Assembly: GCA_977862235.1 (NCBI GenBank)
Contig: OZ374557.1
Span: 806,001 to 870,000 of the forward strand
Reading direction: 5' to 3'
Source: Dudresnaya verticillata
Taxonomy: Eukaryota
DNA length: 64,000 nucleotides
This document shows positions 24,208 through 52,554 of this stretch, one piece after another. The translations under genes and the position numbers were made by a program. The notes under the pieces are model-generated. The model was not told where the DNA came from. It was given only the letters and a program-made list of their open reading frames with translations, and did not search any database. Position 1 is the stretch's first letter, and each line of letters starts with the position of its first letter.

Positions 24208-24913
24208 ATGGCTGTCGTCGCCATCGATGCGGACAAGCCCAAAGCCGACCCGCCCCCACCGCAACCGTCTACGCCTTCCCCCGACGACAGCACCGACGCC
24301 GTCGTCACTCATCCAAGCGAGGCTGTTCAGAAGAGCAAGAAGGGCAGGCGTCCAAAGTTCTCCGCCGACCAGGGCCTCGCCATCCTGCGAGAGGTCGCTG
24401 CCTGCAAAGCGCACATCGCATCGTACGGCAGCAGAAAGGTTCTCTTCCAGAAGGCAGCTGACGGTTGCAACAGAAACCATCACTTCAGCGCTGAGAAGGT
24501 GGACTACAAAGCCATGCAAGATCGCTACACAAGGCTGCAGAGGGACTTCGACAGTATGGATAGGAAGGAGAGTTTGATGTCTGGAATAGGTCGGGAGATA
24601 GGCGAGGCTGAGAAGTTACTCAGCATGATGAAAGAGGCGCGGGTTTGGACACGCGGGATGCGCAAGAGAACTTGAAAAGGAGGAGTCCAGGGTGCGAAAG
24701 GAAAAATGCTAAAGGCCAGCGCAGAGCTGGTCAGGATGGCGATGGGTAGGAACTCGACTAGCAGTAGCGAGTCTGAGCGAGAGGGGCAAGGCGCCGTAGT
24801 GCGAGGTGGGTCGGCGAGGAAGAAGAGGCGTGTCGTCAACCATGGTGAACGGCTGGACGGGGAGCTGGACAGGTTTTAGAAGTCTCTTCAGGGCGCGGAG
24901 ATGGAGCAGCTAG
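24208..24913 (+). pseudogene. Harbinger accessory Myb/SANT-like protein, 5' part
   Basis: RRPKFSADQGLAILREV...LFQKAA...VDYKAMQDRYTRL...SGIG; reads EMEQL up to the TSD of C. Confidence 0.8.
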
Positions 24914-25588
24914 CGTGGTGAAGTGAGCCGTGGCGCGCATGCGGCACGCCGACGGCGAGCCAACCGTAACGGGTGATGCGGCAATACGCCACGCTGATGA
25001 TCTGGCAACGTGTAACCGTGTCGGATGTTGTGCGCATTGCTGTACGCGGGTACGCATTTCTGTACAGCAGTGTAGCGCACCAGCCATACCGGAGCATTTG
25101 TAGTGTTTATTCTTTATTTTTAGTGAGTATCTGTACAGTATGTAGAGTAGTGCGCCAGCCAATAAGAACGCTGCGCATGTCCGTGTCGGAGATTGGGACC
25201 AGCAGGGCCGATTCCACCATAGGACCAGACCACTAGGGTCTGGCCCCCACGGACCGGACCGCTCGGTGCCACCCTGACTTGTATATCAGGGCGGCACCGC
25301 AGCGGCTCCTAAGGTAAACGGGTAAGCAACCTTAGCCCAATCCTTTACGGTTTTCCCCGCGCCGATCCCGTTGCGGTCTACCACCACCACCGTTACGGAG
25401 TCCGTCCCGGCACTTGTACCACCCCCTTGTCTGTTGCTTCCCAATATGCGTCTCGGTAAGCCGCTCGCTGTTCTCCCGTCTCGGTGCGAACTGCTCTACC
25501 ACCCCGTGGAGGTAGTGTTGCTCTCGTCCGTTAAGGAAAGTCATGCCAGCTGTCCGTCTCGGAGTTCGTGGGTTTTCACTACACCACA
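24914..25588 (+). repeat. 5' LTR of element C
   Basis: Direct repeat of 35603-36277, about 16 substitutions by eye. Confidence 0.95.
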
Positions 25589-25593
25589 TCTTT

Positions 25594-25611
25594 TGGTCTC
25601 CCGACCTAGAA
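25594..25611 (+). promoter_or_regulatory. Primer-binding site of element C
   Basis: TGGTCTCCCGACCTAGAA 5 nt after the LTR end. Confidence 0.88.
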
Positions 25612-25736
25612 TACCGTCACGGTTGGAAGAAACAGCCGTCGAAATCCGCTACGGTAGGAATTCGGCTGTGCCGACAACCCGTTACGGAATATTGGATAGA
25701 CAAGCAAGAACAACCGTTGTGTTCCGTTAAGGCATC

Positions 25737-28220
25737 ATGCAGAACGAAGAACACGCAGACCCTCCCGTTACGGAACCTAAAGCGGGTGACACTACCCCCG
25801 CTGCGCGCAGTCTGCGCAGTGAAGAAGGTGAAATCCGTTCCGGAGTGGAGAACCCAGAAGACATCCTTAAGGGTGCTGCTGGTAAAGCTCCCCGTTCCCG
25901 TGTCGGATCAGACGCCTTGAAGAAGGCAGCTCCGCAACCCAAGCCGGAATTCCATCGGGTCCACTGGGTCCTGTCGGAGGTCCTTCCTAGGGTGTTAGAG
26001 CATCTCCGATTGAAAGTACAACCTGGAATGGTAAAAGAGGTGGAGATATCCCTCTCGGAAACTGTTCCGTCTTTTGCTAATTCCTATCTGGAGCAGCACC
26101 TTCCTCGGATAGTGCAAGCTTTGATCCTACAGGAAAAGGTGGCCGCCGAGCTCGAGAGCCAGATTGCTCCCGGCATGGCAAGGCCTCCCACTACGGAAGC
26201 TTTTACTGAGCAACCACCGTTACGGAATGACTTCCCGGTCGAGGGAAGAACGCAGCAGCCGCAACAACCCCCGTTATGGGATTGCCGCCGGGCACAGTAC
26301 CCTCTGGGCCACTGCCACCGGCTCCCGTAACGGATTCTCAACATCAACACGCCCCTGCCGGACCAACACGCACTCAGCCACCGTTACGGTATTCCCCTGG
26401 ACACGTAGATGTGCCTACGCCAGGGCGCTATCAGCAAGAGCGCTATACCGTTCCGGTTCGATCAGGTGGAGGCAGCGACCATCTCAGCGATGCGTCCAGC
26501 TCACCCCATCCGAGTCGGAGGACCGGTCTAGGTCGGCATAAACGAGATGCCCGACACTCCCGCTCTGATCCTCCCCGTCGGTCACACATGGGCGACCACA
26601 CCCAGTGACGACGCTACCAATCCGGTATGGAATCCAATGAGAGCAGCTCTGAGGATAGCCAACACCGCTGCCGCAAGAGGAGAAACAGAAGATCGCGGAA
26701 ACGTGAAAAAAGGCATGACTCCTCTACCTCTACGGATTCAAACTCAGAGATTTCTTCCGTAACGGATAGAGAATAGGAACCGGGCCAGAAAACACGGTGC
26801 CAAATCCGGAAAGGTGAAGGTAATCCGTCCGCTACATGACAAGTTTGTCAAAGCGCTGGACTACCGCACCTACCGATTGGATAAGAGGAGTAAGACATAC
26901 GGCTCTAAGTTCTCACAGAACATGAGCCGTATACGGAAGAAACTCGACGTCCAAATGTCGTCCCATACATTCGATGGGACGGACCCTATTACCGTCTTGG
27001 GTTTTCTCGCCAAGTTTCGTGACGGTTGTAACATCAACGGCATCGCCGAAGGGGTTGCCGTCTGGTGCTTCCAGTTTTTCCTTAAAGGACAGGCCGAAGC
27101 CCTTCTACAGGCTAGGCTTGCTGGAGGTACCATGGCGGCACGTGGAGCAGGCCGAGATGCTCCGCACATATTCCGAGGTGGTGAACTTTTTATTGAGAAC
27201 CTACGCTACGGATGAAGTGATTGCTGAAGCCTATACGGATGTCAGCAACTTCAGGCAAACATCCGCCATGACGGAAGAGCGGTTCTCGAACCAGCTCTGG
27301 GCCAAGGCTCTCCGTTGCGGTACAGTATTTTCCGATCGGGCATTGAATTCACTGTTCGTTGAAGGACTCGTACCGGGTACTCGTCAACAGATGAGAAATT
27401 AGCTAGCAACGCATCCCCAGTTGGATTATCAGGCCATCACTCGCTATGCGACTGGCCTGGGTCAGTTCAGGTCAGTGCAGCGGGCAGCTCGACGCCAAAC
27501 CGTTCCGACTCACGTCTTTGATGGGCGCACTAAAGCACGCCCGTCTAAGGTGTTATCGCTGGATTCCGTATCGGATGTACACTATGAGGCGCAAGGGAAT
27601 CTTTCCGCTACGGATAATCAAGTGCTAGCCGTCGAGGGAGGCCACGGTGCCGCTACGGGAACGAGCACGGGGGTTACCTTTTCTACCCCGTACTCCTCGC
27701 CCCCGCAAAGCGTCCACCCTACTCCGCCCAGGATTCCACGCGCGCAAGGTCCCCCTATGGTGGATCTCGCCCGGCTCCTGGCCCCCAACAGCAGCCGAGT
27801 CACCGTTACGGAAATAATGCCCACGATGGGCGAGGACAGCAGCAACCAGCACCTCCGCTACGGGATGAGTCGGATCCTCGGGTTCGACGCCTTTACGGAA
27901 GTGGTAACTGTCGCATCTGCCTTTCGCCAGAGCACGTTGTTTGCCCATGGATACATGACGCCGATCGGGTTAGGCTTATGGAAGAGCGCGAGCGCAACTT
28001 CCAGAAGCACTACCCTGTAGGTCGCAGGTTCGTAGTAGGAACCAGTTCGAATCCGCAAGGGAATCGGGGCAGGCCGCATACGCCCCCTCCGCAACGGAAT
28101 GCCGCGATACTATCGGTGGAGGACCATGAAGGAGTGGAACTCGCAGAATTGCGCGAGCCCATGGAGGCGGATCCGACTGGTGCAACCTTGAATTCGGAAA
28201 ACTCAAGGGGGGATGCGTAA
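25737..28220 (+). pseudogene. gag: gag of element C, disrupted
   Basis: ALDYRTYRL, FDGTDPITVLGFL and FLLRTYAT motifs shared with gag of A and D; several frameshifts. Confidence 0.85.
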
Positions 28221-31200
28221 GGGCGCCGCCATCCCCGCCTCACGTCGTTCCACCTCTCGCGAGTGTGGACCCGGGGATCGGCGAGATACCGTTACGGAAC
28301 TCCCATTGGCTTATCAGACCAATGATACTATCTGCTTTATGTAACGTCAAAATTACAAGATGCAAATTACCGTGGGACGGACAGATAGCGTGATGCTTCC
28401 TTTAATCTCCGTCTTGGACTCTGGCGCTGGGCCCAATCTCATTAGTGCCAGGCGCCTTCCGCGCCAATGGCTCCCACTCATACGCCCAGCAGCCAGTCCT
28501 CCATTACGGGATGCGTCTAATCGCGCTATACGCCCTCTTGGTCAGATCCAACTTTTCGTCCGTATCGGAGAGCTCCGTGCTCGCGTCCATTTTCTAGTGG
28601 TCGCGAACTTGGCGACTCCCTGTATATTGGGAACTACCTTCATCGACCGCTACGTGAAGGCAATCCTCCCTCCGTTACGGAAAGCTGTTTTTCATCATTA
28701 CCCACCGGTAGCCCTTGTTGGTCAAGCCAAAATTCCGAAGACGGGAACCACTGCAACCCTACAGCCCTCACCTCTTTCTACCGCTACGGTTTCTCAGAAA
28801 ATTCGTTTAGCCAAATCTACCCTTATTCCCCCTATGACTCAAACCACCGTAACGGTTAATACCCCCACTGGTGGGTTATGCTTTCTACAAAATCATCCTA
28901 AGCCGGCTTTTAAGCACCTTACGTTAATGGCTAATGGTATTATGGATGTTGTACCTAACAAACCGTTTCGGATCTGGGTCTCTAATCTTTCTAACAAGCC
29001 GGTACGGTTGCCCAAATGTACTGTCGTGGGCCTCGCCACTGCTGTCCCTTCTGCTATTTTTACCGTTGACGGTATACCTCCATTTAAGGAGGGGAGGAAT
29101 TATTCAATCATTTAATTCTAACCTTACCTCCGAAAAGGCCAGCAGCATCTCCCCTCACGACAATGAAGTAAGCAAACCCGTAACGGAAACTAAAAATACT
29201 ACCGACTGGAAGGATCAAGTCCAGATCGGCACAGAAGAAGCATCGCTCCGTAATTGGATTTTAACCCTACTCGAGGAATATAAGTCGATGTGGAGTGGCG
29301 ATCTAGGCAACATTACAGCTGCCAAGCACCGCATCGAGTTAACTCCCGGAGCGAAGCCAGTATATCAAGCCCCATACCGTGCCGGACATAAGCAGCGAGA
29401 TCTCGAAAAGACAGAGATCGATCGTATGCTTTCCGCTAAGGTAATTGAACCAGCCTCATCGGAGTGGGCCAGCCCCGTGGTTTTCGTTCCAAAAAAGGAC
29501 GGCACCATGCGGTTCTGTGTTGACTATTGAAGGCTCAATTCCGTAACGGTTAGGGACTCATATCCCTTGCCCAGGATGGATGAGTGCATAGATTCCCTTG
29601 GGGAAGCTACTGTATTTACCACCCTGGATTGCAATAGCGGATATTGGCAAGTCGAGATTCCGGAAGAGGAAAGGGACAAAACTACCTTCACTAACCATTT
29701 TGGCTTATACCGTTTTCGGAGAATGCCATTCGGATTGAAAAATGCACCGGCAACCTTCCAACGGGCAGTGGATATAATCCTTTCTACGGTTAAATGGCAA
29801 TTTGCCCTCGTCTACCTAGACGATGTAATTGTCTACTCAAAAACCGTTACGGAACATTTCCACCACCTGAAGGAAGTCCTTACACTTTTACGATCAGCTG
29901 GGGTAACGTTGAAATTGTCAAAGTGTGACTTCTTCAACGCGTCTGTACAATACCTGGGGCATGTTATCCGTCCCGGAAAATTAGAAGTGGATAATCGGAA
30001 TATCCAATCCGTTAAGGTCGCGAAGCCGCCGACTAACCAAACGGAATTGCGATCCTTCTTGGGAATGTGCAACGTGTATCGTCGATTTGTACCCAACTTC
30101 GCTCGGATCTCAGCACCGCTAAATAAGAAAACCGGCAAGGGCTCACCGTTTGAGTTTGGAATATTATCCGATACGGAATATGAAGCCTTCGAGGAACTGA
30201 AGAGACGCCTTATCTCTCCACCTATATTGGCTCTACCCCGTCACGGATATAAATATACGTTGGACACTGACGCATGTTCCCATCAAGTCGGCTGTGTCCT
30301 TCTGCAGGAACCGAATGGCGATCACCTCCCTATTGGATACTGGAGCCGAAGCCTCACCGATGCGGAGAAAAATTATACGACAACCGAAAAGGAATGCTTA
30401 GCCGTGGTCTGGAGCATGTTAACACTCCGACCCTACCTTTACGGTGACAAGTTTATTCTCCGAACAGATTACGATGCCCTGCGGTGGATCCTGAACCTCG
30501 CAGACTCATCTGGCCGCCTAGCCAGGTGGAGGCTCCGCCTATCGGAATTTGAATTTGAGGTGCAATACCGTCCTGGAATTAAGCATCAACTCGCCGATAG
30601 GATGTCGCGACTCAGAACGGATGGCGGTGACGATAGACCTTTGGATGGAGAAGTACCTTGCTTGGTCGCCGAAAACGCCGTCGACGGATTCTATGAGCAT
30701 GGAGTTTATTTAACCAATTGGGCTACATCACAAGAAACCGCTACGGACAATAACGTAATATGCGCCGTGGGGCCCGCCAGTGGGAGTGCATCCGCCTCCC
30801 CTGACAAGCCCGACGCAATAACGTCACGGTTTACTGTAATCCAAGAATCCGACGTTAAGGATGAGACAATTACCAGGGAGGAGTTCCTTGAAGCGCAAGC
30901 CAGAGACCCTTTCTGCCGTCCCAAAGCCGATGCGGTAGGCTCCCCTGGATCACAGTTTGACTATGACCGTAACGGATTCTTGGCACGCAAGTCCCAATTG
31001 GATGGTGCTCTGCAGAAGGTGGTGCCAAGCGAACTCCGTGGACGGGTATTGTATTTATCCCACTACACCCTGATGTCGGGTCACCCAGGTGGAATCAAGA
31101 TGTATTATACACTCCTACAGGATTATTCTTGGCCTCATATGGCCAACGATGTATTTGAATCCGTTCGGACATGTCGCTCCTGCGTGAAGACAAAGGGAAC

Positions 31201-32517
31201 CCGCTTTCGGAATCAAAGATTTATGAAGCTTTTCCCCGCTAGCGGACCTTTGGAGTTTGTCGCTATCGACATTCTTGGGCCACTTCCGAAGACAAAACCG
31301 GGTTATGTCTACGTTCTGGTAATAACCGATCGGTTCTATAAGCTGACGCGTTGTATTCCGTTACGGACAACAACAGCCGTTGTGGTGGCTAACGCCTTTC
31401 TGGACGTTTGGGTGTATGCGTATGGCGCACCCCAATTTGTCCTAACCGATAACGGACCGCAGTTTACTGCTATGTTCTTTGACGCAGTGTGTTCCCTACT
31501 CGGAGTCAGGCATCTACTTACCGCTGCCTACCATCCGCAGACAAATGGGCAAGCTGAGCGGTTTAATAAGACAATCGCCCAACGTTTGCGCCATTATGTT
31601 GAGGATCATCACTCCGATTGGGATTTGTACCTGAAACCGTTGACATATGCGTACAACATGCAGGTACACCGTATTACGGAAACAACACCATTTGATTTGG
31701 TGCTGACACGCCACCCATCGGACATTGTTGTACGAGGGGCTCCTGTCGAACATCAAGAAACCGTTACGGAAGGGCGTATGACCTCGGTGCTACAAAAGCG
31801 GAGCACCATGCGCCGTTTACGGTATGCGCTCCAGACAGCGCGGACTAAGCAAACAGTGGCTCAGCAAAAGCCAAGGCACTGTTTGACCGTAAGGTGCCCT
31901 TTAGGCCTATAATCCGTAACGGAGATCAATTCTATGTCGACAGGCTGCCCCATAACTTGCGGCCGGCCGAACGCCGTGAGCGGGACCGATTGGAAGGCAA
32001 ACCGGATGATGTGGGCGAGGTGGCTCAAGAAATGAAGAAACTCCTCCCGAGAGCCACGGGGCCTTATGAAGTGGAATCCGCAACGGAACATACCGTTACA
32101 ATCCGCAAGGAAGGGGTATTGATCCCAGTAAGTATCGATCGCATCACGAAGGTTCCGATCGGAGTTGCGGTTCAGCTGGCACCCTTGACAATGCCGCCTG
32201 TCACGCCATCAACCGTTTACGGAGAAGTAGTGCCACATCCAGAAGGTACTACAGTACCGCCTACACCGTCAACGGGAATTACAACCTCCGTAGCGGAACC
32301 CCTACAATCCGATACGGAATATGTGATCGACAAGATTGTCGGTCACCGCGACGAACCTACTGGGATGACATACAAAGTCCGCTGGTATGGTGACACTTTT
32401 GAGCCCGCGGAGGAGCTGCCGCAGAATTTCATCTACCGGTATTGGAAGCAAAAGAAAAAGACATCCGCTAAGGGTAAGCCACGGCGACGGGCTAATCCAA
32501 AACGTCACTCACCGTAA
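28196..32517 (+). pseudogene. pol: pol of element C (PR, RT, RNase H, integrase, chromodomain)
   Basis: VLDSGAGPN; YLDD; DTDAC; GHPG...CRSC; TDNGPQF; NGQAERFN; chromodomain YVIDKIVGH...YKVRWYG. Confidence 0.95.
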
Positions 32518-32925
32518 CGGACAGTTGGAGTGCTGGGGTGTGAGTAGAACACACAATGTTTATCGCAAGCTAAGATCGAGGCATAATGGAAACCGTTAAG
32601 GAGATGGTCGAACTGTAACTCTAAGAGTTACGTCGACGCCGCTTCGGAGCAGGGGCAACTGTATCTTCCTCGTTGCTCCCCTGACCCGTTCGTAATCCGG
32701 GTTCCCCACTCGGATCCGATTGGAATACGCGCTGCGTATTATCTCCCAAGACGCGAATCGCACTATCCATGCGCCGGCGCTGACGACGGACCACTGCGCG
32801 GAGATGAATTACCTGTTCCATCGGCCCCTCCTCTAAGGTTAGGACTTCCTGAACGGATCCTGGCAATGGGAAGCGCTGCGTACGGCAATTGCCCCGTAGC
32901 ACCTGTAACCCACTTTCCGTAGCGG

Positions 32926-35469
32926 CTAAATGAGCCGTAACCGTAACGGGGGATCCTCATCTTCTTGAAACTCTACCTTCAGGGAGATCGACGGGTTATC
33001 CCTAACCCCGGCTTCGATTGAATGCTCCGTTGAGGAAACCACCAATACGGATGGTCCTGACTCGGGTGAAGGTACGTCCTTCCGCAGCGGTGGATTCGTG
33101 TCCTTCTCTGGCGAGGCGATATAGCTTTTCCGTAACGGTTCAGGACTTGACGCGGGGACCGAGGGCTTGTCTCCAGTTGCCCCAACACTTGGGCGCTTTG
33201 CAGCCACTTCCGATACGGTGATCGGTGCCTCACTCACCGCTGGTGTGGGAGTGGGCGCCGACAGCGGAGCACTTGACGGGGGCGGTTCAGCAGCTGCAGG
33301 CATTTGCGTCGCAGGAGACAGTGCCGCCGGCACAGTATCCGGCGCCACTTCCGAAACGGTCTGCTCCTTTGAGGCCCCCTTCTCGGACGGTGCCGCAGGC
33401 TTGGGCACCGCCATAGTCGGTGCAACCACAGCTATGGGCGTTGGGGCCTTATCCGATACGGGAGTAGTAGTCTCACAATCCACATCGCGCGACGTGGGTG
33501 TCGCAAACACCGGAAGGATTGGAGCGGGTGTCTTCTCGCTACCCGCTGACATTGATGCGATGGGCATGACCTCCTCCTGTTCTTCCAAGAAGGGGTCCGC
33601 TTCTTGCTGCCTCACCGTAACGGAATCGCGCGGGTCGATTGTAAGCAAACGCCCCGCTGCCTCCTGACAGCTCCCCCAATCTTCAGCCCCGTCCAAACCG
33701 TCACGGTACGCATCCCTTGGTGCTTGGCGAGGGGCATAGCCCCCATGGGCCTGCACCTCTAAGGCCAACCATTCCGGACGCGGATCTTCTCGATGAAGGA
33801 AATATGGCTCACCCACTCCGGGCCTAAGCGGGTGCACCGATAGGACACGGTCCTCGTCCCAACTATACCCCAAGAAGCTCGGAGTGCGTTGCCAGTCCTG
33901 CTCTCCATGTACGGATAAAAGACGCTCAACCCGATGGAGAGGGTACGCCGACCCCGTCACCAAATCGGCTACGCCGACTTGGCGAATTAGGGCGATCACC
34001 ATTACGGGAAGTTGAAAAATACGGCCACAGTCCCCTCCGGGCAGGTCATCCTCATCCTGTGGGAAGCATCGCCAGTCGGCTAACTTGGTGTTATACCGTA
34101 CTCCGTAATAGGCCACCTGGAGCCACGAGAAGAGCACCAGCATTGCCCATTCCGATCGGAAGATGCGTCACAGTACATCGAGCTGATCTTGATTCGGGGG
34201 ACGCTCTCCGTTCGGATGCTTGTGATTCCACTCGCGTTCGGTGAGTAAGTCCGCCGAGAAGTATGCCACGACGGAAGGCGTGGGGACAGACAACCAACGG
34301 GTCACCTCATAACGCTCCCACCATGACGGAGCTGTAAGGTACAATTCACGACGCACCCGATACGGAAGATGGAAGAACTCCTTAGTGTTCCACGTATACA
34401 GGATTGGCGAGCCAACTTGCATTCCGTCACGGGAACGAGTTCGCAAACGGTGTTCCGTCGCGGCATCGTCCTTCCACCCATCGGCATAGCGGAACCAATA
34501 TACCGACTGGTCATAGGGGCGGTCGAAGCAAATGAATTTCACTCCGAACGGCGCACCCCGGAGACGGAAACCTTTGGCCAACAGGTGACTCACCTTTGCG
34601 GTATATCCTACCTCATCATGGCAGCGATACCACAACAAATCCGAAACGGGAGAGGTCCGCGCTTGACAATAGCCATGCACCCATCGGCTTTGCCATACAA
34701 ATTCTCTCCGATTCGGAACAACGCCAATGCATTGATTCGCCTTGAAGAGCTGCGCCATGACGGCCTTGTACCTTCTTGCTTCCAAAACGGTTGGATATTT
34801 CTCAATGTAGTAGTCCACCGTCATCGAGGGCTTAATCTTTGCCCTCTCCGCATCGGTTCTAGCCGGGCGCCCCGCGCGATGATCAAAGTGGTGCCCCGGC
34901 CAATAACCACTCGGGGCAGGGCCCTCTCCGTCACGGATATGTACCACCGGCCACCAAGGCCCCGGTGCAGGTGGATTGGTTTGCGGGGGCCCACGCATCC
35001 GTCTCGATGTACTTGAGGAAGGATGTAGACTAGCCACCATCCTACGACTCGGCATCGATACCGGTGTCGATGGTGTCCGTAACGGAATGGCCGGTAGGTC
35101 CACCAAGTTGAGCTCCTCCCCACCACGTCGGACCTCCTCGTCGTCATCCTTGGTCGCATCTTCTCCGTGACGGTGTGTCGCTGCATTCCATAACGGGGTG
35201 CTCCTTGTGGCTGGGCCAGCAGCAAACCGATTCGGATCGTAGACAGACCAGCCGCGGCCCGCCGATAGTGCCTGTGACTGTTCCGCTGCGGTAACGCCCA
35301 CGCGACCCCTCGTAGTGCGTGGTGCCACAACCGCCGAGGGCGAGGCCTGCGCTTGAGTCGAAGCATCCGTAACGGTAGGCGCACCCGGCGCTCTCGTCGT
35401 CGAGCTCGCGCGGGTACGCCGTGTCGATTGAAAGGGGGAAGGGGAGCGCTTGCTCTTCTCCCCTGCCAT
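32926..35469 (-). pseudogene. Antisense extra ORF of element C (about 847 codons, one in-frame TGA at 34168-34170)
   Basis: ORFs 34168-35772 and 32926-34143 are in frame; likely start MAGEK at 35469; Trp/Tyr-rich core flanked by low-complexity arms; possible frameshifted tail 32621-32902 ending PAPKRRRRNS. Confidence 0.8.
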
Positions 35470-35602
35470 CTTGGAAGCGGGTGCACGAAGGAGGAGGAAA
35501 ATTTGAGGAAGATAACCGTATCGGTTGTGTGTGGGTGTGGAAGCAAAGGTAATCCGTGACGGTGGGCGCCAGAGGATGTGGCGCCATTTAAGGAGGGGGG
35601 TC

Positions 35603-36277
35603 TGTGGTGAAGTGGGCCATGGCGCGCATGCGGCACGCCGACGGCGAGCCAACCGTAACGGGTGATGTGGCAATACGCCACGCTGGTGATCTGGCAACGT
35701 GTAACCGTGTCGGATGTTGTGCGCATTGCTGTACGCGGGTACGCATTTCTGTACAGCAGTGTAGCGCACCAACCATACCGGAGCATTTATAGTGTTTATT
35801 CTTTATTTTTAGTGAGTATCTGTACAGTATGTAGAGTAGTGCGCCAGCCAATGAGAACGCTGCGCATGTCCGTGTCGGAGATTGGGACCAGCAGGGCCGA
35901 TTCCACCATAGGACCAGACCACTAGGGTCTGGCCCCCACGGACCGGACCGCTCGGTGCCACCCTGACTTGTATATCAGGACGGCACCGCAGCAGCTCCTA
36001 AGGTAAACGGGTAAGCAACCTTAGCCCAATCCTTTACGGTTTTCCCCGCGCCGATCCCGTTGCGGTCTACCACCACCACCGTTACGGAGTCCGTCCCGGC
36101 ACTTGTACCACCCCCTTGTCTGTTGCTTCCCAATATCCGTCTCGGTTAGCCGCTCGCTGTTCTCCCATCTCGGTGCGAACTGCTCTACCACCGCGTGGAG
36201 GTAGTGTTGCTCTCGTCCGTTAAGGAAAGTCAGGCCAGCTGTCCGTCTCGGAGTTCGTGGGTTTTCACTACACCGCA
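35603..36277 (+). repeat. 3' LTR of element C
   Basis: TGTGGTG...CACCGCA; after PPT, before TSD. Confidence 0.95.
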
Positions 36278-36282
36278 GCTAG

Positions 36283-36605: not shown

Positions 36606-37703
36606 TTACTGGGGGGTGCGGAGAGCAATGTAGGCTGCTAACGATAGGGGTTCGCACCCAAAGTACTGGAATACCGTGTTACGATGTAAACAGATCCAAA
36701 GGTTGATCAGAACCATCGCAGCGATGTACAGCAGCACCGCAGGGGACTCCATAACCTTCATCTTTCTCTTGAAGTCCACAGCGGTCCTGTAGAGTTTTAT
36801 CTCTTCGTACAACCACTCCACGGTAACTCGGTTAGAGCTTGTGGCCGCATTTAGGGCGCTTTGTAAGGCGGAGAGCGCGCTTCCCTGGTATGGGACCTCG
36901 AGGAACGCGCGTGCGTTGTATCCGCTATCACCATATAAACAGTACTGGATGAAGTTAACCAGTAATGCCTCCTCCAGCATTTCGTCCGTTTTCGCTTCAC
37001 TGTACAAGTACCAGTCATGTCGTCTGCCTTGCACAGTCCCAAACGCATGTAGAACATAACCGTCCGGCGTCGTGATGGTCTGAAACTTGACGCAGTGAAT
37101 CCTCTTGTGTCCATTATAGGCGACGTTTTGCCTAGCGTTCCCGGTCGGTCGGGCTATGCCTAGGCGTGTCCCGTCGATAAAACCAACGCAGTTGGCCAAT
37201 GCCTCTGTCTTATCCTTGACGGCTTTTGCGTAGATAGCTTCTCTCTGTTCCATGAAGCAGGGTGGCACAGCGCTCTGAAGTAGATGGCCGTACTTTTGGC
37301 AGAACGCCCTTATCGTCTGCCAAAATATCTCTGACATATGCGACGACTGTTTCCCAAACATCTCTGCTACATCGCCCCATCTGCAGGGTGATGCAAGACG
37401 TCGTAGCAGCAAGCACGTGCTAAGTAACGGCGTCGTACCGTAGCCGTTTCGATCGGTTCGCAACGCCTGTAAACCGAGGTAGGGAACCAGACAGATGATG
37501 TCTGCTCTACAGAAGCCGAACTGCTCTAATGCTTGCTGCTCGGACATGCGTTCGAAGGACACGTGAAACGATATAGACGAGATGCGCAGCACTCGGAGGT
37601 TGCGTAGGCTCAAGGCCTTCCCTTCCTCTACGACTGATACGGCGGCACGGTAAAGGTCTCTGCGATAGCACATGCAGTACCTACGCCGGATCAGAGCGCT
37701 CAC
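36606..37703 (-). CDS. PIF/Harbinger (HARBI1-like, DDE_Tnp_4) transposase, start region probably damaged
   Basis: LLRRLASPCRW; CVGFIDGT; YNGHKRIHCVKFQ; GRRHD; YGDSGY; RVTVEW. Confidence 0.9.
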   Translation of the reverse strand: MSALIRRRYCMCYRRDLYRAAVSVVEEGKALSLRNLRVLRISSISFHVSFERMSEQQALEQFGFCRADIICLVPYLGLQALRTDRNGYGTTPLLSTCLLLRRLASPCRWGDVAEMFGKQSSHMSEIFWQTIRAFCQKYGHLLQSAVPPCFMEQREAIYAKAVKDKTEALANCVGFIDGTRLGIARPTGNARQNVAYNGHKRIHCVKFQTITTPDGYVLHAFGTVQGRRHDWYLYSEAKTDEMLEEALLVNFIQYCLYGDSGYNARAFLEVPYQGSALSALQSALNAATSSNRVTVEWLYEEIKLYRTAVDFKRKMKVMESPAVLLYIAAMVLINLWICLHRNTVFQYFGCEPLSLAAYIALRTPQ

Positions 37704-38682
37704 AACGACCTGCGCGGTTCGCAGGCGTCATATGTGCAGGTGCTTAGCGCAGTCCTTCTGCCGGTGAATCGCCATGACTGCGCGAAGGGGAAGAGGCTGC
37801 GTCTTTCCCGCGTGTACCTGTAAGGTCGGTATCAGCCCTGAGTGTAATACTCCCGCCACAGTCCAGATTCAACATACCGTAAGCCTGAACGGCTCGGCAA
37901 TGCCAATGCCGTAACGGAAATTTGGTCAGATAAATATCTTCGCAATTTTTGCCATGACCTTTGCAGTTACCCGTTCTACCGTAAGCTCTCTAGTATGAAT
38001 GAACATTGGAAAAGGCTGAGGTGCGTGGCGCGCAGCGCGCGTGTTGATCTGGACCCATCGGTGTCGCTGAGTGGCGCTGTAAGATACCTTACAGTGCTCC
38101 CGCCGCAGACAACCACCACGCTGTCCGCGCCCGACCCGCCTGCCCGACTGCAACTGGCTGGGCTACTTCAAGGCCTCGAAGACCCCTCTCCTCTCGACAC
38201 GATGGAAGTAGAAGAGTAAGCAGCATTGACGAGAACGTCCGTTGCGTCAGCCGCGCCAGTCTCCCATGGCCCTCTTCCCTCGCCTCCGCAAACCTTGCCT
38301 CCCCCTCTGACCCACTACTCTCGCTCGCGCCACACTTCGCCCCGCTCGCGTCCCTTCCTCCGCGTTCCGCGACCATGTGTGCCGCGCCCGTAGAGCAGTG
38401 ATTGTACACCACTCTCACGCAGCGCGCAGTTCGACCGCTTGGTGACGACATTCCGGATTCCATACCGTCTTCACGCGCTAATCGCGTCGCTTAAGCCTTC
38501 GTGCACTTCGACACGATTGTAAACCACGCCGTCAAAAAATGACTGCGAGCACACGCAGTAATACAAATTATTCTACTGCAGACAAGAAGACCGCATTAAA
38601 AGAGTTCCTGACGAAGGCTGCCAACGCATACAACTATTTGAGTGTAAGGATGTGCTTTCTCGGTCTCTTACGGAGTCCTGGA

Positions 38683-39994: not shown

Positions 39995-40343
39995 TAAGCC
40001 CTTCACTGTATTACAATGTTCTACAAAGCGTTCTCCATGCTATCGTTTGGTCTTCTCATCAGGGCAGGAGGATTAATACAGGTACGGCATATTGCCTGGG
40101 GTATTCGTCCACTGAAAAGCGAAAGGGAACAAGATAGTGCTGAATTTGGTTACCATCATTGGTGGCAGAAACTGTGGTCGCGTCCTCACCGCCATGATGG
40201 GCTCCTTGTCTGACCACACGACGGATAGCTTTCAATGGGTGGTCCAGAAAATTTCGGAGTGCTATGGTGTAGTACTGGCAATGGTCTCCATGTACCAGAG
40301 AACGTCTTTTATGCTTGCCGGTCTAACGGTCTTGAGCTATTAT
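39995..40343 (+). pseudogene. Degenerate MULE/FAR1-type transposase, part 1
   Basis: LVTIIG..N.GRVL....L.D.TTDSFQWV resembles the MULE core; continues after element D. Confidence 0.55.
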
Positions 40344-41175
40344 TGTAGTGCAAACGTCCTTGACGGAACACCGCCGAGCAGTTCGGGGCGCGGTGGGTAG
40401 CGACGCCCGTGGCGGTGAGTAGCCTCGTCTTGGGCGACTTGTGGTAGAGCAATTGACTCGCCTTGGGCGGACTGTAAACGCCCGAGGCGGAAAGGAAGGA
40501 CAAAAGAGAACAAAAAGGGAACACGTCAAAGACGGGTAGAGACGTGGAAGCACGGGAGGGAGACGCTTAGCCGTAGGCAGCGGTAGGGTACGCGCGTGCT
40601 GAACGGGGAAGTCTGGACCAAGGCCGGCTTTCCGGGAGTTTACCTCAACGTCTGAGACGGATCAACTAAGTATAGAACTACCTAGCGGCGGCGACGAGTG
40701 TGTAGGCGCCGCGCGGGAACTCGGGACACGTGTTGTCCCGAGGCGCGTCTGACAGATCCGTCCGTCATGCAGCCGCGCTCCTGACAGATCACGCTTAGCT
40801 TCCCTGCTCGAGTCCTTACACCTACATGTGGATGTACTTCCTTATAGCCGCATGCGCCCCATGGCGCGTGCGGTCTCGATCCGCACCAATCCCGATCCAG
40901 TCCGGATTCGGGCCAGCCATGCGGATGCGCCAGGCTTACAGCGAACGTTCCCGCCACTGCGCCATGCGCGTACGCGTGGCGCCGTACAGTGCCCGGGGTT
41001 CAGGCGTGCGGTCTGCACGCCAAGCGAGCCGTTCTGGCCCGAGTGGCTAGCGGCATGCGTCGGTGACGTGTTTGCGCCGCGGGCGGGTTGAGCGCGCCGT
41101 TGGCGGTCGTCCGTCGGTAGACGCTGCATATCAACCCGCTTGAAAGCGAAAAAGGGGGACCCCCCTGGCACTACA
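40344..41175 (-). repeat. 3' LTR of element D (832 bp)
   Basis: TGTAGTGC...GCACTACA; direct repeat of 52555-53469 lacking about 83 bp. Confidence 0.95.
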
Positions 41176-41608
41176 CGACCCCCTCCGAAAACGCGAACAC
41201 GTCAACCTGTTTCACCCTGCCTGCCTTACTGCGTCTGCGCCTCTTCCAGCGCCGATCGTGTCTGTCACCCGCGCCTTCGCGTCTGCATTTGCCCGCCCTT
41301 GGCGTTGGTTGAGCCCCGTCAAAGACGCACGTTCAGTTCCCCCCGCCTTTAGCGTAGGAACAATTCCCGTCGAATACGTGTCGTTGACTAACTTCGCCAG
41401 TGGCGTGCGTGAACCCCCGTGTTTGACGTCGTATCTGTGCACGCGTACGTGCACATACCGTCTAGGGCGTTTCTTTGAGTTCCGCCTTCGGCGTTGTTTG
41501 GTCCACCGTCGTTGACGTGTGTTTGTTGGCTTCCGTCTTTGGCGTAAATTCGACTTCGGAGTCAAAACCGTCGTTGACGTATCGTGTGAACTTCACCAGT
41601 GGCGTGCG

Positions 41609-43929
41609 ATGACTGAACGTCTCAGACGTCATGGCCCAGTTCAACGGCCTTCAAGTGGAGGGCGGCGCCGGTGTATCCGTCACCATTCGACCTTTTCGGG
41701 AGGACGCCCCGCAACGATGCGCGATTATTCTCGCGGGCCCCCTGGTTCGACCAGGAGGCCCTGCGGCACGAGGACCTCATCACCCATTACGCTGTGAGCG
41801 GATTTTTGCCAGGGGAGTTGCCCCTAGCCGTCGTGTGGACGAACGAGTGGCGCCATCGGTGCGCCATTCCGAGAGGCTGGCTGCGTATTGGAGCCGGTCA
41901 GATGCGTGCAGATTCGTATGCGTGTTTCGTCGTTGACGTGTATCGGCGGTTTACTCGCTATCCGGGGTCGGTATTGACCCCCACCGTCTTTGAATTTAAC
42001 GCAGGGCAGTACCGCGCCAATGGTTAGGTTGGGTATGGGGACAGTCTTGGGACGTTGTCACTAAGCCATGTGACTGTTTCGGCTGAGCCGCGGGTGCTTC
42101 AGGAGGCTAACCTCCTTGGTGTACGCTTGAAAGCGGATTTCCGATACTTGCATAGGACGGGCACCTTCTATTGGGAGCGCTGCGTCCGTTGGGAGTGCGA
42201 AACGCGCCGCCGAAAAGGCGTTTTTGTGCCGTATCAAGATACGCAAGTCGATCGCATTGAGCGGGAAAAGTTGCCGCATTGCTTCATTCACGTCCCGCCG
42301 TTGTGCCGAGACTTTGAGGTCAGCGAGGGCTTTGCGGCTGAATTGCCTCCGTGTGTCACGTATATTTGGCTCCGAGTTGCGGACGGATCCGTACTCTCGA
42401 TGTTAGATCGTGTTTTTCACCGAGTGGGTCATTAACGTAAGTTACGCATGGATGTGGGAGGTGTATGACACCTTCCGGCTCTATTATGTGCCGCCACGCG
42501 TGGTCAGCCTCCTTGGCGGGCTTGACTTGGCTGAAGGGCTGGGCGGTGTCAAGAATTGCCAAGAGTTCTGGGATCTACGCCATGTGGCGGATAACGTCAA
42601 CTGGGACGACCCGGTTGCTGTGCCGCCGGGGAACAGGCGCCGTAAGGCAAACCGTCCGCGTTACGCGATGAGTAGAAACCGTTCCGCCTGTGGCGATTGG
42701 GTGTGGTACAACCCGTGGACCAAACGTCTTACAATGGAGAACATCGCTGAGAGTCATTGTCGTACGGACCGCTGCACGCCAGCGAATCACCCACGTGGGT
42801 TGCGCAAGAATTGCGACTTTGCGGGGGATTTACCACCCCACTTGAGCGCCTTGATGGCGGAGGAGGATGCGTTCCACTCTAACAGCGGACCGGTTAACCC
42901 GTCTGGGACGGACGTCATTACGCCTATGGCGGCTGAGCTTACTGCGGGGGCGACAGCTCCCACGGCGACTTCGCCAGCGGCGGTAGGATCGTCGGCTGTT
43001 GTGCCTGTCGGCTTGCCGTCGGTTGCGCCATTGGATCTCTCGGCGCCCATCAATGAGGGTGATGGTGATGCCATCATGGTTGCGCCCGTGGCGAGTTCTG
43101 CGTCCGCAGTTACCCCTCAAGGCGGCTCGTCTAACGTCGCTGACGGTGCGAATTGCCCTCCTGCAGTGCCCGAATGGACTGAGGAGCAGCGCCGCACGGT
43201 GCTCGTATTTTTGCGAGCCACCGGTGTCGTCACTAACGGGTCGGGCGGGTCATCCACGACGCCCCTCGGGCACCCGCTGCTGGCTGCTCTGCAGCCCCGC
43301 GTTGCTGTAGTTCAGGCGTCGACCGTCGTTGCGACTGTGCCGTCTAACGACGAAGGTACAGCGTCTAATGACGGAGTGGCGAAAAGCCTTTGTCGCCTCA
43401 GGCGGGTTGTGCGGGTTCGTCCGCCATTGCGTCCACTGACGTTGTTAACAAAAGTCCGCCAAAGGCGAGTGCGGTGGCAGCACCTACGGCGGTTCCGCAG
43501 GCTCCAGTGGCCTCTTCGTCAGTGACGGATGTTGATCGTTCAACGCCTTTGGCGGTTAATGCGGTCCCATCACCGGAGGTGCCGGGGCCGTCGGCTTCGC
43601 CCAAGGCGGTTGAGTATGCTCCGCCGCCAGAGGCGAGTGAGCTTCCTGGTGTAGCGCCTAAGGCGGATAATGACTCTAACGCTGCGCCTATGGCGGTTGA
43701 CGAACAGTTGTCGCCTAAGGCGGGTTGTGAGTCAGGCGCGTCGCCAGCGGCGGATGTCGCGACTTCGACAGCAGTGGCTGTGGCGGGTCCCTTGCGGTCC
43801 GTCCCTGCCCCTGCTGCGAGCGCACCGTCGGTGACGGAAGACGACCTCTACTAAGAGGCGTTAAGAGAATCCGCCAATGGTGTCGGGGATGATGCCCCAT
43901 CTGAGCCGTCTGCGACGAAAAAGCCGTAG
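41609..43929 (+). pseudogene. Antisense extra ORF of element D, with stops and frameshifts
   Basis: ORFs 41671-42027 and 42055-42435 (same frame), 42410-43525 and 43390-43854; Trp/Tyr-rich core followed by an Ala/Pro/Ser tail; motif similarity to the antisense ORF of C. Confidence 0.75.
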
Positions 43930-52426: not shown

Positions 52427-52534
52427 AATGCAGTCGTAGAGTTGCTTGAACGTCGTGGACGATTAGCGACGGACGTCTAGAGACGGAAGGTCGGACGTCG
52501 CACGACGGAGCAACTTCGTTGAAACGTAGCACAC

Positions 52535-52552: not shown

Positions 52553-52554
52553 GT

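What the first reader, a model, noticed from the sequence alone, without database searches (positions are those of the whole stretch)
32621..35469. Antisense ORF of C encodes an unrecognised Trp/Tyr-rich domain homologous to that of D
Colinear matches by eye (C vs D): LYLTAPSWWERYEVTRWLSVPTPSVVAY vs FIHVPPLCRDFEVSEGFAAELPPCVTY; RIFRSEWAMLVLFSWLQVAY vs RVFFTEWVINVSYAWMWEVY; RIFQLPVMVIALIRQVGVADL vs RLYYVPPRVVSLLGGLDLAEG; QDW vs VNW. Both continue into an Ala/Pro/Ser-rich tail with a basic end (PAPKRRRR in C, NLS-like). No signal peptide or TM segment is evident, so it does not look like env. Antisense extra ORFs are known from plant Tat-lineage elements (Grande, Retand, RIRE2), but I do not recognise this domain.
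Basis: partly seen in the sequence, partly recalled or inferred. Interest (0 to 1): 0.75.

Follow-up and report, generated by a model that had tools for sequence, protein, structure and literature searches.

The report
Antisense accessory gene in red-algal retrotransposons
Two chromodomain LTR retrotransposons in this window carry, antisense between pol and the 3' LTR, broken copies of a gene from an unannotated protein family seen so far in red algae; its predicted helical core matches no solved structure, and the protein likely acts in the nucleus as an accessory factor of the element.

Summary
It lies between the chromodomain end of pol and the 3' LTR.

Direct C-D comparison is not above chance (tblastn E 0.35; 93 of 200 shuffles reach the real score). 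An exhaustive HMMER search found 106 relatives, best E 2e-31, aligned across the TGA. A profile built from those relatives alone hits element D's antisense region at E 1.6e-9 (2e-11 when read through with X). The claimed homology therefore holds.

The two named relatives are Gracilariopsis chorda hypothetical proteins and a Gracilaria changii transcript. No Pfam family matches. AlphaFold gives a confident helical core (pTM 0.79) with no PDB or BFVD match (best Z 3.1). Seven of 28 long members end in a KRxR motif, as C does (KRRRR).

Verdict: a new orphan family filling the known "antisense extra ORF" slot, here in red-algal chromoviruses. Its function is inferred only.

In passing: element C alone is saturated with the palindrome W-CCG-N3-CGG-W (85 copies, 6 expected).

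The parts
24914..25588 (+). Element C 5' LTR (TG..CA after boundary refinement), preceded by target-site duplication GCTAG at 24909-24913
   Evidence: Self-blastn gives 24915-25585 vs 35604-36274 at 97.9%. The ends and TSD were read. There are 16 differences in 675 bp.
25589..32517 (+). Element C PBS, gag, protease, RT, RNase H, integrase and chromodomain, broken into several frames
   Evidence: ORFs. Pfam finds RVT_1, RT_RNaseH, Integrase_H2C2, rve and Chromo. PBS TGGTCTCCCGACCTAGAA is shared with D. gag is similar to D's gag.
34171..35469 (-). Antisense gene of C, first part: ATG at 35469, disordered Ser/Thr/Arg/Pro-rich N-terminus, first 245 or so residues of the conserved core
   Evidence: This piece scores E 2.4e-88 against the hits-only profile.
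34168..34170 (-). Single in-frame TGA inside the conserved core
   Evidence: Relatives align across it in one stretch, query 26-393 with the stop at position 270.
33799..34902 (-). Conserved helical core domain (P0001 residues 26-393), Trp/Tyr-rich
   Evidence: 373.9 bits as one domain against the hits-only profile. AlphaFold2 gives pLDDT 78.6 and pTM 0.79, ordered over residues 24-388. Composition.
32929..34167 (-). Antisense gene of C, second part: end of the core, then an acidic Ala/Pro/Ser/Thr-rich, probably disordered tail
   Evidence: This piece scores E 9.9e-50. Composition.
32929..32956 (-). Zone where the two frames overlap; the frame must shift here to reach the terminal piece
   Evidence: ORFs 32926..34167 and 32621..32956 overlap. 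That a shift is the right reading is inferred from the family's C-terminal motif.
32621..32956 (-). Likely true C-terminus: helix-prone basic stretch ending APAPKRRRRNS, then the stop at 32623-32621, 103 bp from the end of pol (tail to tail)
   Evidence: A KRxR-type end occurs in 7 of 28 long family members, against 0.08% of other 12-residue windows in the same proteins. The motif was defined after seeing the data.
35603..36277 (+). Element C 3' LTR, preceded by the polypurine tract AAGGAGGGGGG. The antisense ATG lies 134 bp inside it. TSD GCTAG at 36278-36282.
41617..42432 (+). Element D antisense gene remnant, first frame, with one internal stop at 42025-42027.
   Evidence: Piece 42028-42432 scores E 4.6e-8 and 1.6e-9 against hits-only profiles at profile positions 124-219. 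Alignment shown.
42407..43522 (+). Element D antisense gene remnant, second frame after a frameshift. It holds blocks 2-4 (to about 42727), lacks about 20 profile positions, and continues into an Ala/Pro/Ser-rich tail.
   Evidence: Read-through with X scores 40.8 bits, against 31.8 for the first frame alone. Alone it scores E 1.7, not significant.
40344..41175 (-). Element D 3' LTR in D's own orientation. D spans 40344-53469 with TSD ATTAT, and its pol with chromodomain ends at about 45142.
24914..36277 (.). 85 copies of the palindrome CCG-N3-CGG (59 with W on both sides; 27 are CCGTWACGG), spread over the LTRs, gag, pol and the antisense gene of element C only

Best explanation
The minus-strand frame 35469-32621 is a retrotransposon-borne accessory gene that would be transcribed antisense from a promoter at or near the 3' LTR, and its protein is predicted to enter the nucleus and likely serves the element there.

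Shown directly:
- The gene lies inside LTR element C, between the chromodomain end of pol and the 3' LTR, on the opposite strand.
- It belongs to a conserved protein family of at least 106 cluster representatives. The two named clusters are red-algal.
- A degenerate copy sits in the same slot of a second, distantly related chromovirus, D.
- The C copy is disabled by one stop and, probably, one frameshift. That is about what neutral decay since insertion predicts.

Predicted architecture: a disordered basic N-terminus, a helical Trp/Tyr/Arg-rich core of about 365 residues with no detectable structural relative, a long acidic Ala/Pro/Ser tail, and a short helical basic end with a KRxR motif.

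Inferred only:
- The antisense promoter.
- Nuclear import through the KRxR end.
- A role in the element's own cycle, such as transcriptional control, nuclear steps of the pre-integration complex, or blunting host silencing. This is by analogy with nuclear antisense proteins of plant Grande elements and HTLV.
- The gene being dispensable in cis, since D and B persist without a working copy.
For: Real coding gene.
- The longest open frame is 477 codons, against a maximum of 299 in 500 shuffles.
- phmmer against 1.84 billion representatives gives 106 hits at E<=1e-3, 30 at <=1e-10, and a best of 2.1e-31. Single alignments span the TGA.
- C scores 373.9 bits against a profile that excludes it.

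Part of the element.
- C has LTRs, a TSD, a PBS and a PPT around the gene.
- No terminal repeats flank the gene that would mark a nested insertion.
- D has the same slot and orientation, E 1.6e-9 to 2e-11. D's pol is only 43-51% identical to C's, and its gag about 30%.

Decay fits neutrality.
- LTR divergence is 2.1-2.4%, and 4.2% of substitutions would create a stop. About one stop is therefore expected in 847 codons, and one is seen.
- pol is broken at several places too.

Family behaves like transposon cargo.
- Several clusters hold 3-4 near-identical full-length copies on different contigs, for example four 549-aa copies differing at 4-9 of 549 residues.
- P0017, a relative, and P0129, a chromodomain pol 62% identical to C's, are each recorded on 2 contigs with a longest contig of 9545 bp.

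Organism and transcription.
- One relative is a Trinity transcript ORF of Gracilaria changii.
- The host is red-algal. Relatives are named from Gracilariopsis chorda and Gracilaria changii. The nearest named pols are Chondrus crispus at 56-60% and Agarophyton chilense at 55%.

Nuclear cue.
- 7 of 28 long members end in a KRxR-type motif, against 0.08% of background windows. C ends in KRRRR.

Fold.
- pTM is 0.79, and 258 of 461 residues have pLDDT >= 90.
Against: - No expression data exist for this locus. No sequencing run could be listed, so antisense transcription and its start are unshown.
The 9545-bp coincidence is weak on its own: about 0.5 exact length matches are expected by chance among the lists compared.
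- Both window copies are broken. Element B, with the same pol class and a 2.6-kb pol-to-LTR gap, shows no trace of the gene.
- D's copy is far more degenerate than its LTR age explains: 40.8 bits against 373.9 for C, with similar LTR identity. The gene is therefore not needed in cis.
- The nuclear signal is a short motif chosen after seeing the data, and 21 of 28 long members lack it.
- Nothing links the fold to any activity.
- Only 2 of 20 clusters looked up carry an organism name.
Confidence: 0.6

Rival explanations
1. The protein is a sequence-specific, probably dimeric, DNA-binding factor. Its target would be the W-CCG-N3-CGG-W palindrome that saturates element C, so the element would carry both the binder and about a hundred binding sites along its own DNA.
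For: - CCG-N3-CGG occurs 85 times in C's 11.4 kb against 6.2 expected, and 23 times in the other 52.6 kb.
- Wherever the protein sequence permits the motif by synonymous choice, it is realised. In C this is 12 of 20 P-x-R sites (1.6 expected) and 26 of 37 frame-2 sites (3.0 expected).
- In D, B and A the same sites are at expectation: 1/20 and 2/30, 1/11 and 0/14, 0/8 and 1/9.
- The motif covers the LTRs, gag, pol and the antisense gene alike.
- The hairpin it could form is weak, about -2 kcal/mol. That favours recognition in duplex DNA.
- Within this window, only the element whose antisense gene was intact at insertion has the motif.
- The core's most conserved residues include many Arg and aromatic residues.
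Against: - The link rests on one element; it is a correlation of n=1.
- No DNA-binding domain was found by Pfam.
- No helix-turn-helix or winged-helix match was found by fold search. The best Z was 3.1 for the core and 3.3 for the C-terminal lobe.
- Gag's zinc knuckle, the integrase-chromodomain or a host factor (27 sites hold the Myb core TAACGG) could equally be the reader of the motif.
- A mutational drive could also make the motif without any binder.
Confidence: 0.1
2. The family is a host gene of red algae that LTR elements captured by transduction or a nested insertion. On this reading, the copies in C and D are passengers with no role in the element.
For: - Capture of host genes by LTR elements is known (review PMC7264820, passages read).
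- The G. chorda members are annotated as ordinary hypothetical proteins.
- The context of the relatives is unknown.
Against: - The gene sits in the same slot and orientation in two elements whose gag and pol have diverged to 30-50% identity. The gene itself has diverged at least as far. That fits long co-descent rather than two captures.
- Captured genes are typically in one or a few copies. Here several clusters hold multiple near-identical copies on separate contigs.
- No terminal repeats or duplications flank the gene inside C.
Confidence: 0.1
3. The antisense RNA is what matters: it would pair with the sense genomic RNA and feed silencing or copy-number control. On this reading, the open frame is incidental.
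For: Antisense transcripts with regulatory roles are described for several retroelements, and the review raises this option for antisense extra ORFs.
Against: - An incidental frame would not keep a 365-residue domain recognisable at E 2e-31 between proteins only 34% identical.
- It would not give a confident fold.
- It would not keep a recurrent C-terminal motif.
- An RNA role may still exist alongside the protein.
Confidence: 0.08
4. The frame is a chance open frame in GC-rich DNA, and the C-D blocks are a coincidence.
For: The direct C-D comparison is not above chance. GC is 57% in this stretch.
Against: - There are 106 database relatives.
- The profile hit to D is independent of C.
- The shuffle test on frame length rejects chance.
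Confidence: 0.01

Closest known systems
Antisense additional ORFs between pol and the 3' LTR of plant Tat-lineage Ty3/gypsy elements: Retand ORF4 with the TRP28 / Transposase_28 domain, maize Grande gene23, rice RIRE2 (PMC7264820 and PMC11963269; passages read by term search)
   Same: - Same slot between pol and the 3' LTR, same antisense orientation, and a pol-to-LTR region several kb long.
- The protein has no known function.
- The Grande product is nuclear, and here there is an NLS-like end.
- The gene is kept across diverged elements.
   Different: - The protein family differs: PF04195 is not matched in C or in 113 members.
- The host elements here carry a chromodomain, whereas Retand is described as non-chromovirus and its TRP28 as confined to flowering plants.
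- The hosts are red algae.
- The core is predicted to fold into a helical domain with no solved relative.
Antisense proteins of complex retroviruses, such as HTLV-1 HBZ and HTLV-2 APH-2, as cited in PMC11963269
   Same: They are encoded on the minus strand near the 3' LTR and expressed from an antisense promoter in or near that LTR. They are nuclear regulators of the element's own expression. That is the working model adopted here.
   Different: - No sequence or fold similarity was found.
- HBZ is a small bZIP protein (recalled, not tested here), whereas this protein has about 950 residues with a 365-residue core.
- The promoter, localisation and function are untested here.
Chromoviruses (chromodomain-bearing Ty3/gypsy elements) of red algae, such as the Chondrus crispus pol proteins P0135, P0215, P0220 and P0242
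   Same: C's RT-RNase H-integrase is 56-60% identical to them and has the same Pfam architecture, including the C-terminal chromodomain.
   Different: Chromoviruses are usually described as gag-pol only. My three literature searches listed no paper describing an antisense gene in red-algal elements. Only the listings of titles and abstract starts were seen.
Highly iterated palindrome HIP1 of cyanobacteria and other genome-wide iterated motifs such as uptake sequences and Chi (recalled from memory; relevant to the side observation only)
   Same: Each is a short palindrome, far over-represented, sitting in coding DNA in all frames through synonymous choices.
   Different: The motif here is confined to a single 11.4-kb mobile element in a eukaryote, not a whole genome. 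The motif is different, and no cause is known.

Membership tests
Antisense additional ORF between pol and 3' LTR (aORF-3R class of LTR retrotransposons, as defined in PMC7264820) | Lies inside a complete LTR element, between the end of pol and the 3' LTR | tested here: met
   C has LTRs 24914-25588 and 35603-36277, TSD GCTAG, a PBS and a PPT. pol ends at 32517 and the gene spans 32621-35469.
Antisense additional ORF between pol and 3' LTR (aORF-3R class of LTR retrotransposons, as defined in PMC7264820) | Encoded on the strand opposite to gag-pol | tested here: met
   gag-pol is on the plus strand with RT, RNase H, integrase and chromodomain. The gene is on the minus strand.
Antisense additional ORF between pol and 3' LTR (aORF-3R class of LTR retrotransposons, as defined in PMC7264820) | Recurs in different copies or families rather than in a single transduced copy | tested here: met
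   A second element, D, has a degenerate copy in the same slot and orientation. There are 106 cluster representatives elsewhere, several with 3-4 near-identical copies.
Antisense additional ORF between pol and 3' LTR (aORF-3R class of LTR retrotransposons, as defined in PMC7264820) | Relatives in other genomes occupy the same position in their elements | not testable with these tools
Locus scans of metagenome and viral contigs found none. The only pointer is that P0017 and P0129 each show 2 contigs with a longest of 9545 bp.
Retand / Tat-lineage TRP28 antisense proteins | Transposase_28 domain (PF04195) | tested here: not met
   No PF04195 match at E<=0.1 for C's pieces, at E<=0.01 in 78 members, or at E<=0.001 in 35 more.
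Retand / Tat-lineage TRP28 antisense proteins | Host element is a non-chromovirus Ty3/gypsy of flowering plants | tested here: not met
   Both C and D end pol with a chromodomain (Pfam Chromo). The named relatives are red-algal.
Chromovirus (host element of the gene) | RT, RNase H and integrase of Ty3/gypsy type, with a C-terminal chromodomain | tested here: met
   RVT_1 1.3e-28, RT_RNaseH 8.7e-33, rve 6.2e-12. Chromo scores 6.2e-4 in C, below the gathering score, and 5e-9 in D. The closest pols carry PF00385.
env-like extra ORF of LTR elements | Sense orientation after pol, with a signal peptide or membrane anchor | tested here: not met
   The gene is antisense. The highest 19-residue hydropathy is 1.72, in LPVMVIALIRQVGVADLVT, which is part of the folded core at pLDDT above 90. 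No dedicated signal-peptide predictor was available.
Myb/SANT, winged-helix or other known DNA-binding folds | Recognisable domain by profile or by fold | tested here: inconclusive
   No Pfam match. Whole core: Foldseek best E 0.62, VIA best Z 3.1. The C-terminal beta-alpha3-beta2 lobe folded alone: Foldseek best E 1.9, VIA best Z 3.3 with 44 residues aligned.
Classical monopartite nuclear localisation signal | K-K/R-X-K/R cluster in an exposed region | tested here: met
   The sequence pattern alone is met. C's terminal piece ends KRRRR, and 7 of 28 long members end in KRxR-type motifs. Import itself is not testable here.

The most novel reading that the evidence does not exclude
Element C would be a retrotransposon that writes an address label into its own DNA. 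Nearly every site where the coding sequence allows it carries the palindrome W-CCG-N3-CGG-W: 85 perfect copies, plus about 30 that look like CpG-decayed ones. The orphan antisense protein would be the dimeric reader of that label. It would bind along the whole cDNA or provirus to steer nuclear import, integration or protection from silencing. That would make it a self-recognition system of a kind not described for any retroelement.
Probability: 0.1. Interest if true: 0.9.

Novelty: new variant of a known kind. Interest (0 to 1): 0.62.

Why it matters
Antisense extra genes of LTR retrotransposons have been described mainly in flowering-plant Tat/Retand elements, and none has a known function.

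This case shows the same gene slot filled by an unrelated, well-conserved protein in chromodomain elements of red algae. The arrangement has therefore arisen, or been kept, far outside land plants.

The family is unannotated, has at least 106 cluster representatives, and folds with high confidence into a helical domain that no search could place. That makes it a clean target for structure and function work. It is also a useful marker for annotating red-algal genomes, where such genes are filed as host hypothetical proteins.

The palindrome that saturates element C through synonymous sites, and that is absent from four neighbouring transposons, is hard to explain by ordinary codon or base bias. 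If it proves to be a binding or marking site, it would open a new question about how retroelements recognise their own DNA.

Tried and rejected
Searches and tools that gave nothing:
- Word-indexed protein searches: the 433-aa first ORF found nothing, and alignment A1 found only P0066.
- No whole genome is held for this window.
- Earlier-findings look-ups by place, sequence and words were all empty.
- Sequencing runs: none was listed, and no RNA holder was listed.
The smaller A2 matched 8 stretches in metagenome contigs and 1 in viral contigs, none confirmed.
- ESM Atlas gave no usable hit for P0002 or P0005. The Atlas's own model of P0005 is poor, pLDDT 0.31.

Fold and sequence comparisons:
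- Foldseek on PDB and BFVD gave 0 matches at E<=0.001.
- VIA-align against 48,161 chains gave a best Z of 3.1 (rmsd 5.2, 119 aligned).
- I suspected a winged helix in the C-terminal lobe, which has a beta-alpha-alpha-alpha-beta-beta order. Folded alone (pLDDT 79.6), it matched nothing: Foldseek best E 1.9, VIA best Z 3.3.
- The PDB sequence profile search found none at E<=1.

Tails and copies:
- The tails of family members are too diverged for any shared C-terminal module to be shown. Only sub-family pairs match, and none matches C.
- Core versus tail differences among near-identical copies were 2.9% and 4.4%. This is dominated by gene-model differences and is not a selection test.

Complex prediction:
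- The same test with the intact relative P0002 was never run because the queue was full. No verdict.

Other elements and the palindrome:
- Element B's pol-to-LTR region gave no profile hit and no long frame.
- Iterated motifs in B and D turned out to be a local tandem-like array (17279-17401) and a modest 5-8 copy word. Neither compares with C's palindrome.
- A stable-hairpin explanation of the palindrome is unlikely: mean MFE is about -2 kcal/mol.

Literature:
- Four searches listed no paper on an antisense gene in red-algal elements or on the palindrome. Only the listings were seen.
Full report
ANATOMY OF THE WINDOW

The window has 50-60% GC and is a pile of transposons. Self-comparison gives four pairs of direct repeats.
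- Element B spans 11180-19899.
- Element C has LTRs at 24915-25585 and 35604-36274, 97.9% identical.
- Element D spans 40343-53469 and has its pol on the minus strand.
- A fourth repeat pair at 55075-63025 encloses a Helitron-type Rep/helicase (Helitron_like_N, PIF1).
- A fifth gypsy-type element, A, runs off the left edge.

Reading the LTR ends refines C to 24914-25588 and 35603-36277. C has TG..CA ends, a 5-bp target duplication GCTAG, a PBS TGGTCTCCCGACCTAGAA and a polypurine tract AAGGAGGGGGG. D has the target duplication ATTAT and the same PBS. C's plus strand encodes gag, RT, RNase H, integrase and a C-terminal chromodomain, broken into several frames. C's RT-integrase is 47-61% identical to A, 46.7% to B and 43-51% to D. 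D's gag is about 30% identical to C's and 52% to A's.

THE OBSERVATION

The minus strand between the end of pol (32517) and the 3' LTR (35603) holds one long frame.
- It starts at ATG 35469, 134 bp inside the LTR.
- It has a single TGA at 34170-34168.
- It then stays open to 32926, giving 847 residues when read through.
- A further piece in another frame (32956-32624) ends APAPKRRRRNS. Its stop lies 103 bp from the stop of pol, so the two genes meet tail to tail.
- The longest open frame in the region is 477 codons. In 500 shuffles the mean was 163 and the maximum 299.

IS C HOMOLOGOUS TO D?

Directly, no test shows it.
- tblastx finds only the Ala/Pro/Ser tails at E 2e-5, with 26% identity.
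- A Smith-Waterman alignment of my own that allows frameshifts scores 46. Shuffled C scores 45.5 +/- 4.9, and 93 of 200 shuffles reach 46.

So the by-eye blocks are not more than chance as a pair.

The picture changed with an exhaustive phmmer search. The query was residues 165-625 with X at the stop, run against 1.84 billion cluster representatives. It returned 106 proteins at E<=1e-3, 30 at <=1e-10 and a best of 2.1e-31. Many aligned in one stretch across the TGA, for example query 26-393.

I built a profile from these hits only, with neither C nor D in it, and ran it over all 2302 six-frame pieces of the window.
- C's two pieces score E 2e-88 and 1e-49.
With a refined profile it scores 1.6e-9.
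- The next piece outside C and D scores E 0.47.

Reading D through its internal stop and its frameshift, with X at each break, raises the score from 31.8 to 40.8 bits (E 2e-11). It also extends the alignment through block 2. Blocks 3 and 4 fall at the expected profile positions but add little. D also lacks about 20 profile positions.

The homology claim is therefore right, but it needed the family to show it. D's LTRs are as similar as C's (97.7% against 97.9%), yet its copy scores 40.8 bits against C's 373.9. D's gene must already have been degenerate or very diverged when D inserted. B has a 2.6-kb pol-to-LTR gap but no trace of the gene.

WHAT THE FAMILY IS

Of the 20 representatives I looked up, 2 clusters carry names.
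- One is a set of four Gracilariopsis chorda hypothetical proteins, PXF39757.1 and relatives.
- The other is a Trinity transcript ORF from Gracilaria changii.
- The other 18 are unnamed ENA or Logan contigs of 2-24 kb.

C's pol finds Chondrus crispus (56-60%) and Agarophyton chilense (55%) as its nearest named relatives, with unnamed hits up to 66%. The host is therefore a florideophyte red alga whose own copies are not in the collection.

Several clusters hold three or four near-identical full-length copies on separate contigs, as transposon cargo would. One relative, P0017, and one chromodomain pol, P0129 (62% identical to C's), are each on record from 2 contigs with a longest of 9545 bp. 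That suggests they share contigs. By length alone, about half an exact match is expected by chance among the lists compared, so this is only a pointer.

None of 78 members reaches a Pfam family. Four coiled-coil families are each hit by one member at E 0.001-0.009. None of 35 further members does either; one has a sub-threshold TSC22 hit. C's own pieces have none at E<=0.1 apart from a sub-threshold DUF1737 hit at E 0.076. In particular, the Transposase_28 domain of plant Retand antisense proteins is absent.

ARCHITECTURE AND FOLD

The C protein has four regions.
- Residues 1-188 are a basic N-terminus, 46% Ala/Pro/Ser/Thr.
- Residues 189-557 are the core, rich in aromatic residues (W 4.3%, Y 6.0%, F 4.6%).
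- Next comes an acidic tail, 45% Ala/Pro/Ser/Thr.
- Last is the frame-shifted basic end.

The most conserved columns of the core are mostly Arg, Asp, Glu, His, Tyr, Trp, Pro and Gly.

AlphaFold2 with a 78-sequence alignment gives mean pLDDT 78.6 and pTM 0.79. 258 of 461 residues have pLDDT 90 or more. The protein is ordered from 24 to 388, mostly helical, and ends in a beta-alpha-alpha-alpha-beta-beta lobe.

Nothing solved resembles it.
- Foldseek on PDB: best E 0.62, TM 0.11.
- BFVD: best E 0.94.
- VIA-align against 48,161 chains: best Z 3.1, well below that tool's usual noise level.
- The PDB sequence profile found nothing.
- The last lobe looked like a winged helix, so I folded it alone (pLDDT 79.6). 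It matched nothing either: Foldseek best E 1.9, VIA best Z 3.3.

As far as these tools see, the fold is unplaced. That does not prove it is new.

THE C-TERMINUS

Of the 28 hits with 450 or more residues, 7 end in [KR]KRxR or KR[PQKR]R within their last 12 residues. The same pattern occurs in 0.08% of other 12-residue windows of those proteins. I defined the pattern after seeing the ends, so the formal P value is inflated.

C's third piece ends KRRRR. The rest of the tails is too diverged to align.

STATE OF THE COPIES

LTR divergence is 2.1-2.4%, and 4.2% of possible substitutions make a stop. About one stop is therefore expected in 847 codons since insertion, and one is present. pol is broken several times too. 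Nothing suggests that the host kept the C copy for its own use.

HOW IT MOST LIKELY WORKS

Shown: a conserved protein-coding gene that belongs to the element, antisense, next to the 3' LTR, in two diverged chromoviruses.

Inferred:
- It has its own antisense promoter at or in the 3' LTR, as shown for maize Grande gene23 and HTLV (passages of PMC7264820 and PMC11963269).
- The KRxR end takes the protein to the nucleus.
- There it serves the element in transcription control, nuclear steps of integration or defence against silencing.
- It can act in trans, which would explain why D and B survive without a working copy.

I put 0.6 on this package. About 0.9 of that confidence is for the "element-borne conserved gene" part, and much less for the nuclear accessory role.

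Rivals are a host gene captured as a passenger (0.1), an RNA-only role (0.08) and chance (0.01). The bolder idea follows.

A SIDE OBSERVATION THAT MAY BEAR ON FUNCTION

A repeat scan of the gene region kept returning CCGTAACGG-like words.
- CCGWWWCGG occurs 42 times in the window against 3.1 expected, and 40 of the 42 lie in element C.
- The general form CCG-N3-CGG occurs 85 times in C's 11.4 kb (6.2 expected from dinucleotide shuffles). It occurs 23 times in the other 52.6 kb.
- A, B, D and the Helitron are at expectation.
- 59 of the 85 have A or T on both sides, and 27 are CCGTWACGG.
- The copies lie in the LTRs (8-9 each), gag-protease (28), RT-integrase (16) and the antisense gene region (22). 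They sit in all three frames and on both strands, without insertions relative to homologues.

A synonymous-site test is telling.
- In C, 12 of 20 Pro-x-Arg sites are written CCG NNN CGG, against 1.6 expected from C's own codon use.
- In C, 26 of 37 sites that allow the motif in the second frame carry it, against 3.0 expected.
- In D, B and A the same counts are 1/20 and 2/30, 1/11 and 0/14, and 0/8 and 1/9.

Residues touched by the motif are only slightly less conserved in pol (0.55 against 0.63) and not at all in the antisense core.

The commonest one-base variants are those expected from CpG decay, CCA...CGG and CCG...TGG, 31 in all. Two of the three motif differences between the LTRs are G/A changes at CpG. 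The element probably had more copies at insertion and has been losing them as methylated CpGs do.

As a hairpin the motif is weak, about -2 kcal/mol. That favours recognition in duplex DNA by a dimeric protein, or some directed mutational drive.

I give that 0.1. It rests on a single element and could not be tested, because no DNA of relatives was within reach.

COMPARISON WITH WHAT IS KNOWN

The slot, orientation and mystery match the "aORF-3R" class of plant Tat/Retand, Grande and RIRE2 elements. The protein family, the chromovirus host elements and the red-algal hosts do not. Retand's TRP28 is described as confined to flowering plants and its elements as non-chromovirus.

My searches listed no paper on such a gene in red-algal elements or on the palindrome. 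I saw only the listings of those searches, and passages of the two papers named. I file the gene as a new variant of a known kind.

LIMITS
- No genome is held for the window.
- No sequencing run was listed.
- The complex predictor was not available.
- No dN/dS could be computed.

Noticed in passing
window 24914-36277 (element C): Element C is saturated with the palindrome W-CCG-N3-CGG-W. It has 85 copies against 6.2 expected, in the LTRs, gag, pol and the antisense gene, in all frames and on both strands. The motif is realised at 12 of 20 and 26 of 37 synonymous-permissive sites. Elements A, B, D and the Helitron are at expectation.
   Followed up: partly
window 24914-36277: The commonest one-base variants of the palindrome are CpG-transition products: CCA...CGG 21 and CCG...TGG 10. 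Most of the 16 differences between the two LTRs are transitions. This suggests that the inserted element is CpG-methylated and decaying.
   Followed up: partly
window 50072-52462 (-): Element D's gag is a 797-aa open frame. It has an N-terminal extension of about 380 residues that looks disordered and low in complexity, and a CCHC knuckle at the end. It has no Pfam match. It is 52% identical to A's gag over residues 388-796 and about 30% to C's.
   Followed up: partly
window 55075-63025: Direct repeats at 55075-55537 and 62561-63025 (88-94% identical) enclose minus-strand frames with Helitron_like_N and PIF1 helicase domains and a CAG-rich stretch. This is a Helitron-type element, not an LTR element.
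   Followed up: partly
window 36606-37727 (-): An intact-looking 373-aa frame with a DDE_Tnp_4 (PIF/Harbinger-type) transposase domain lies about 330 bp beyond C's 3' LTR.
   Followed up: no
window 9937-10887 (-): A frame with a DDE_1 (pogo/Tc1-like) endonuclease domain lies just left of element B.
   Followed up: no
window 16862-19466, array at 17279-17401: Element B has a 2.6-kb pol-to-LTR region with no long frame and no hit to the family profile. It holds a local tandem-like array carrying TCTATCCA six times. This recalls the tandem arrays reported in the same region of plant Retand elements.
   Followed up: partly
window 25594-25611 and 52536-52553: Elements C and D share the same primer-binding site, TGGTCTCCCGACCTAGAA, and a similar polypurine tract. 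Yet their pol is only 43-51% identical.
   Followed up: no
window 41511-46020 (- strand words): The word ACGTCAACGACG recurs five times on D's sense strand, mostly in its pol-to-LTR region. This is a much weaker iterated word than C's palindrome.
   Followed up: no
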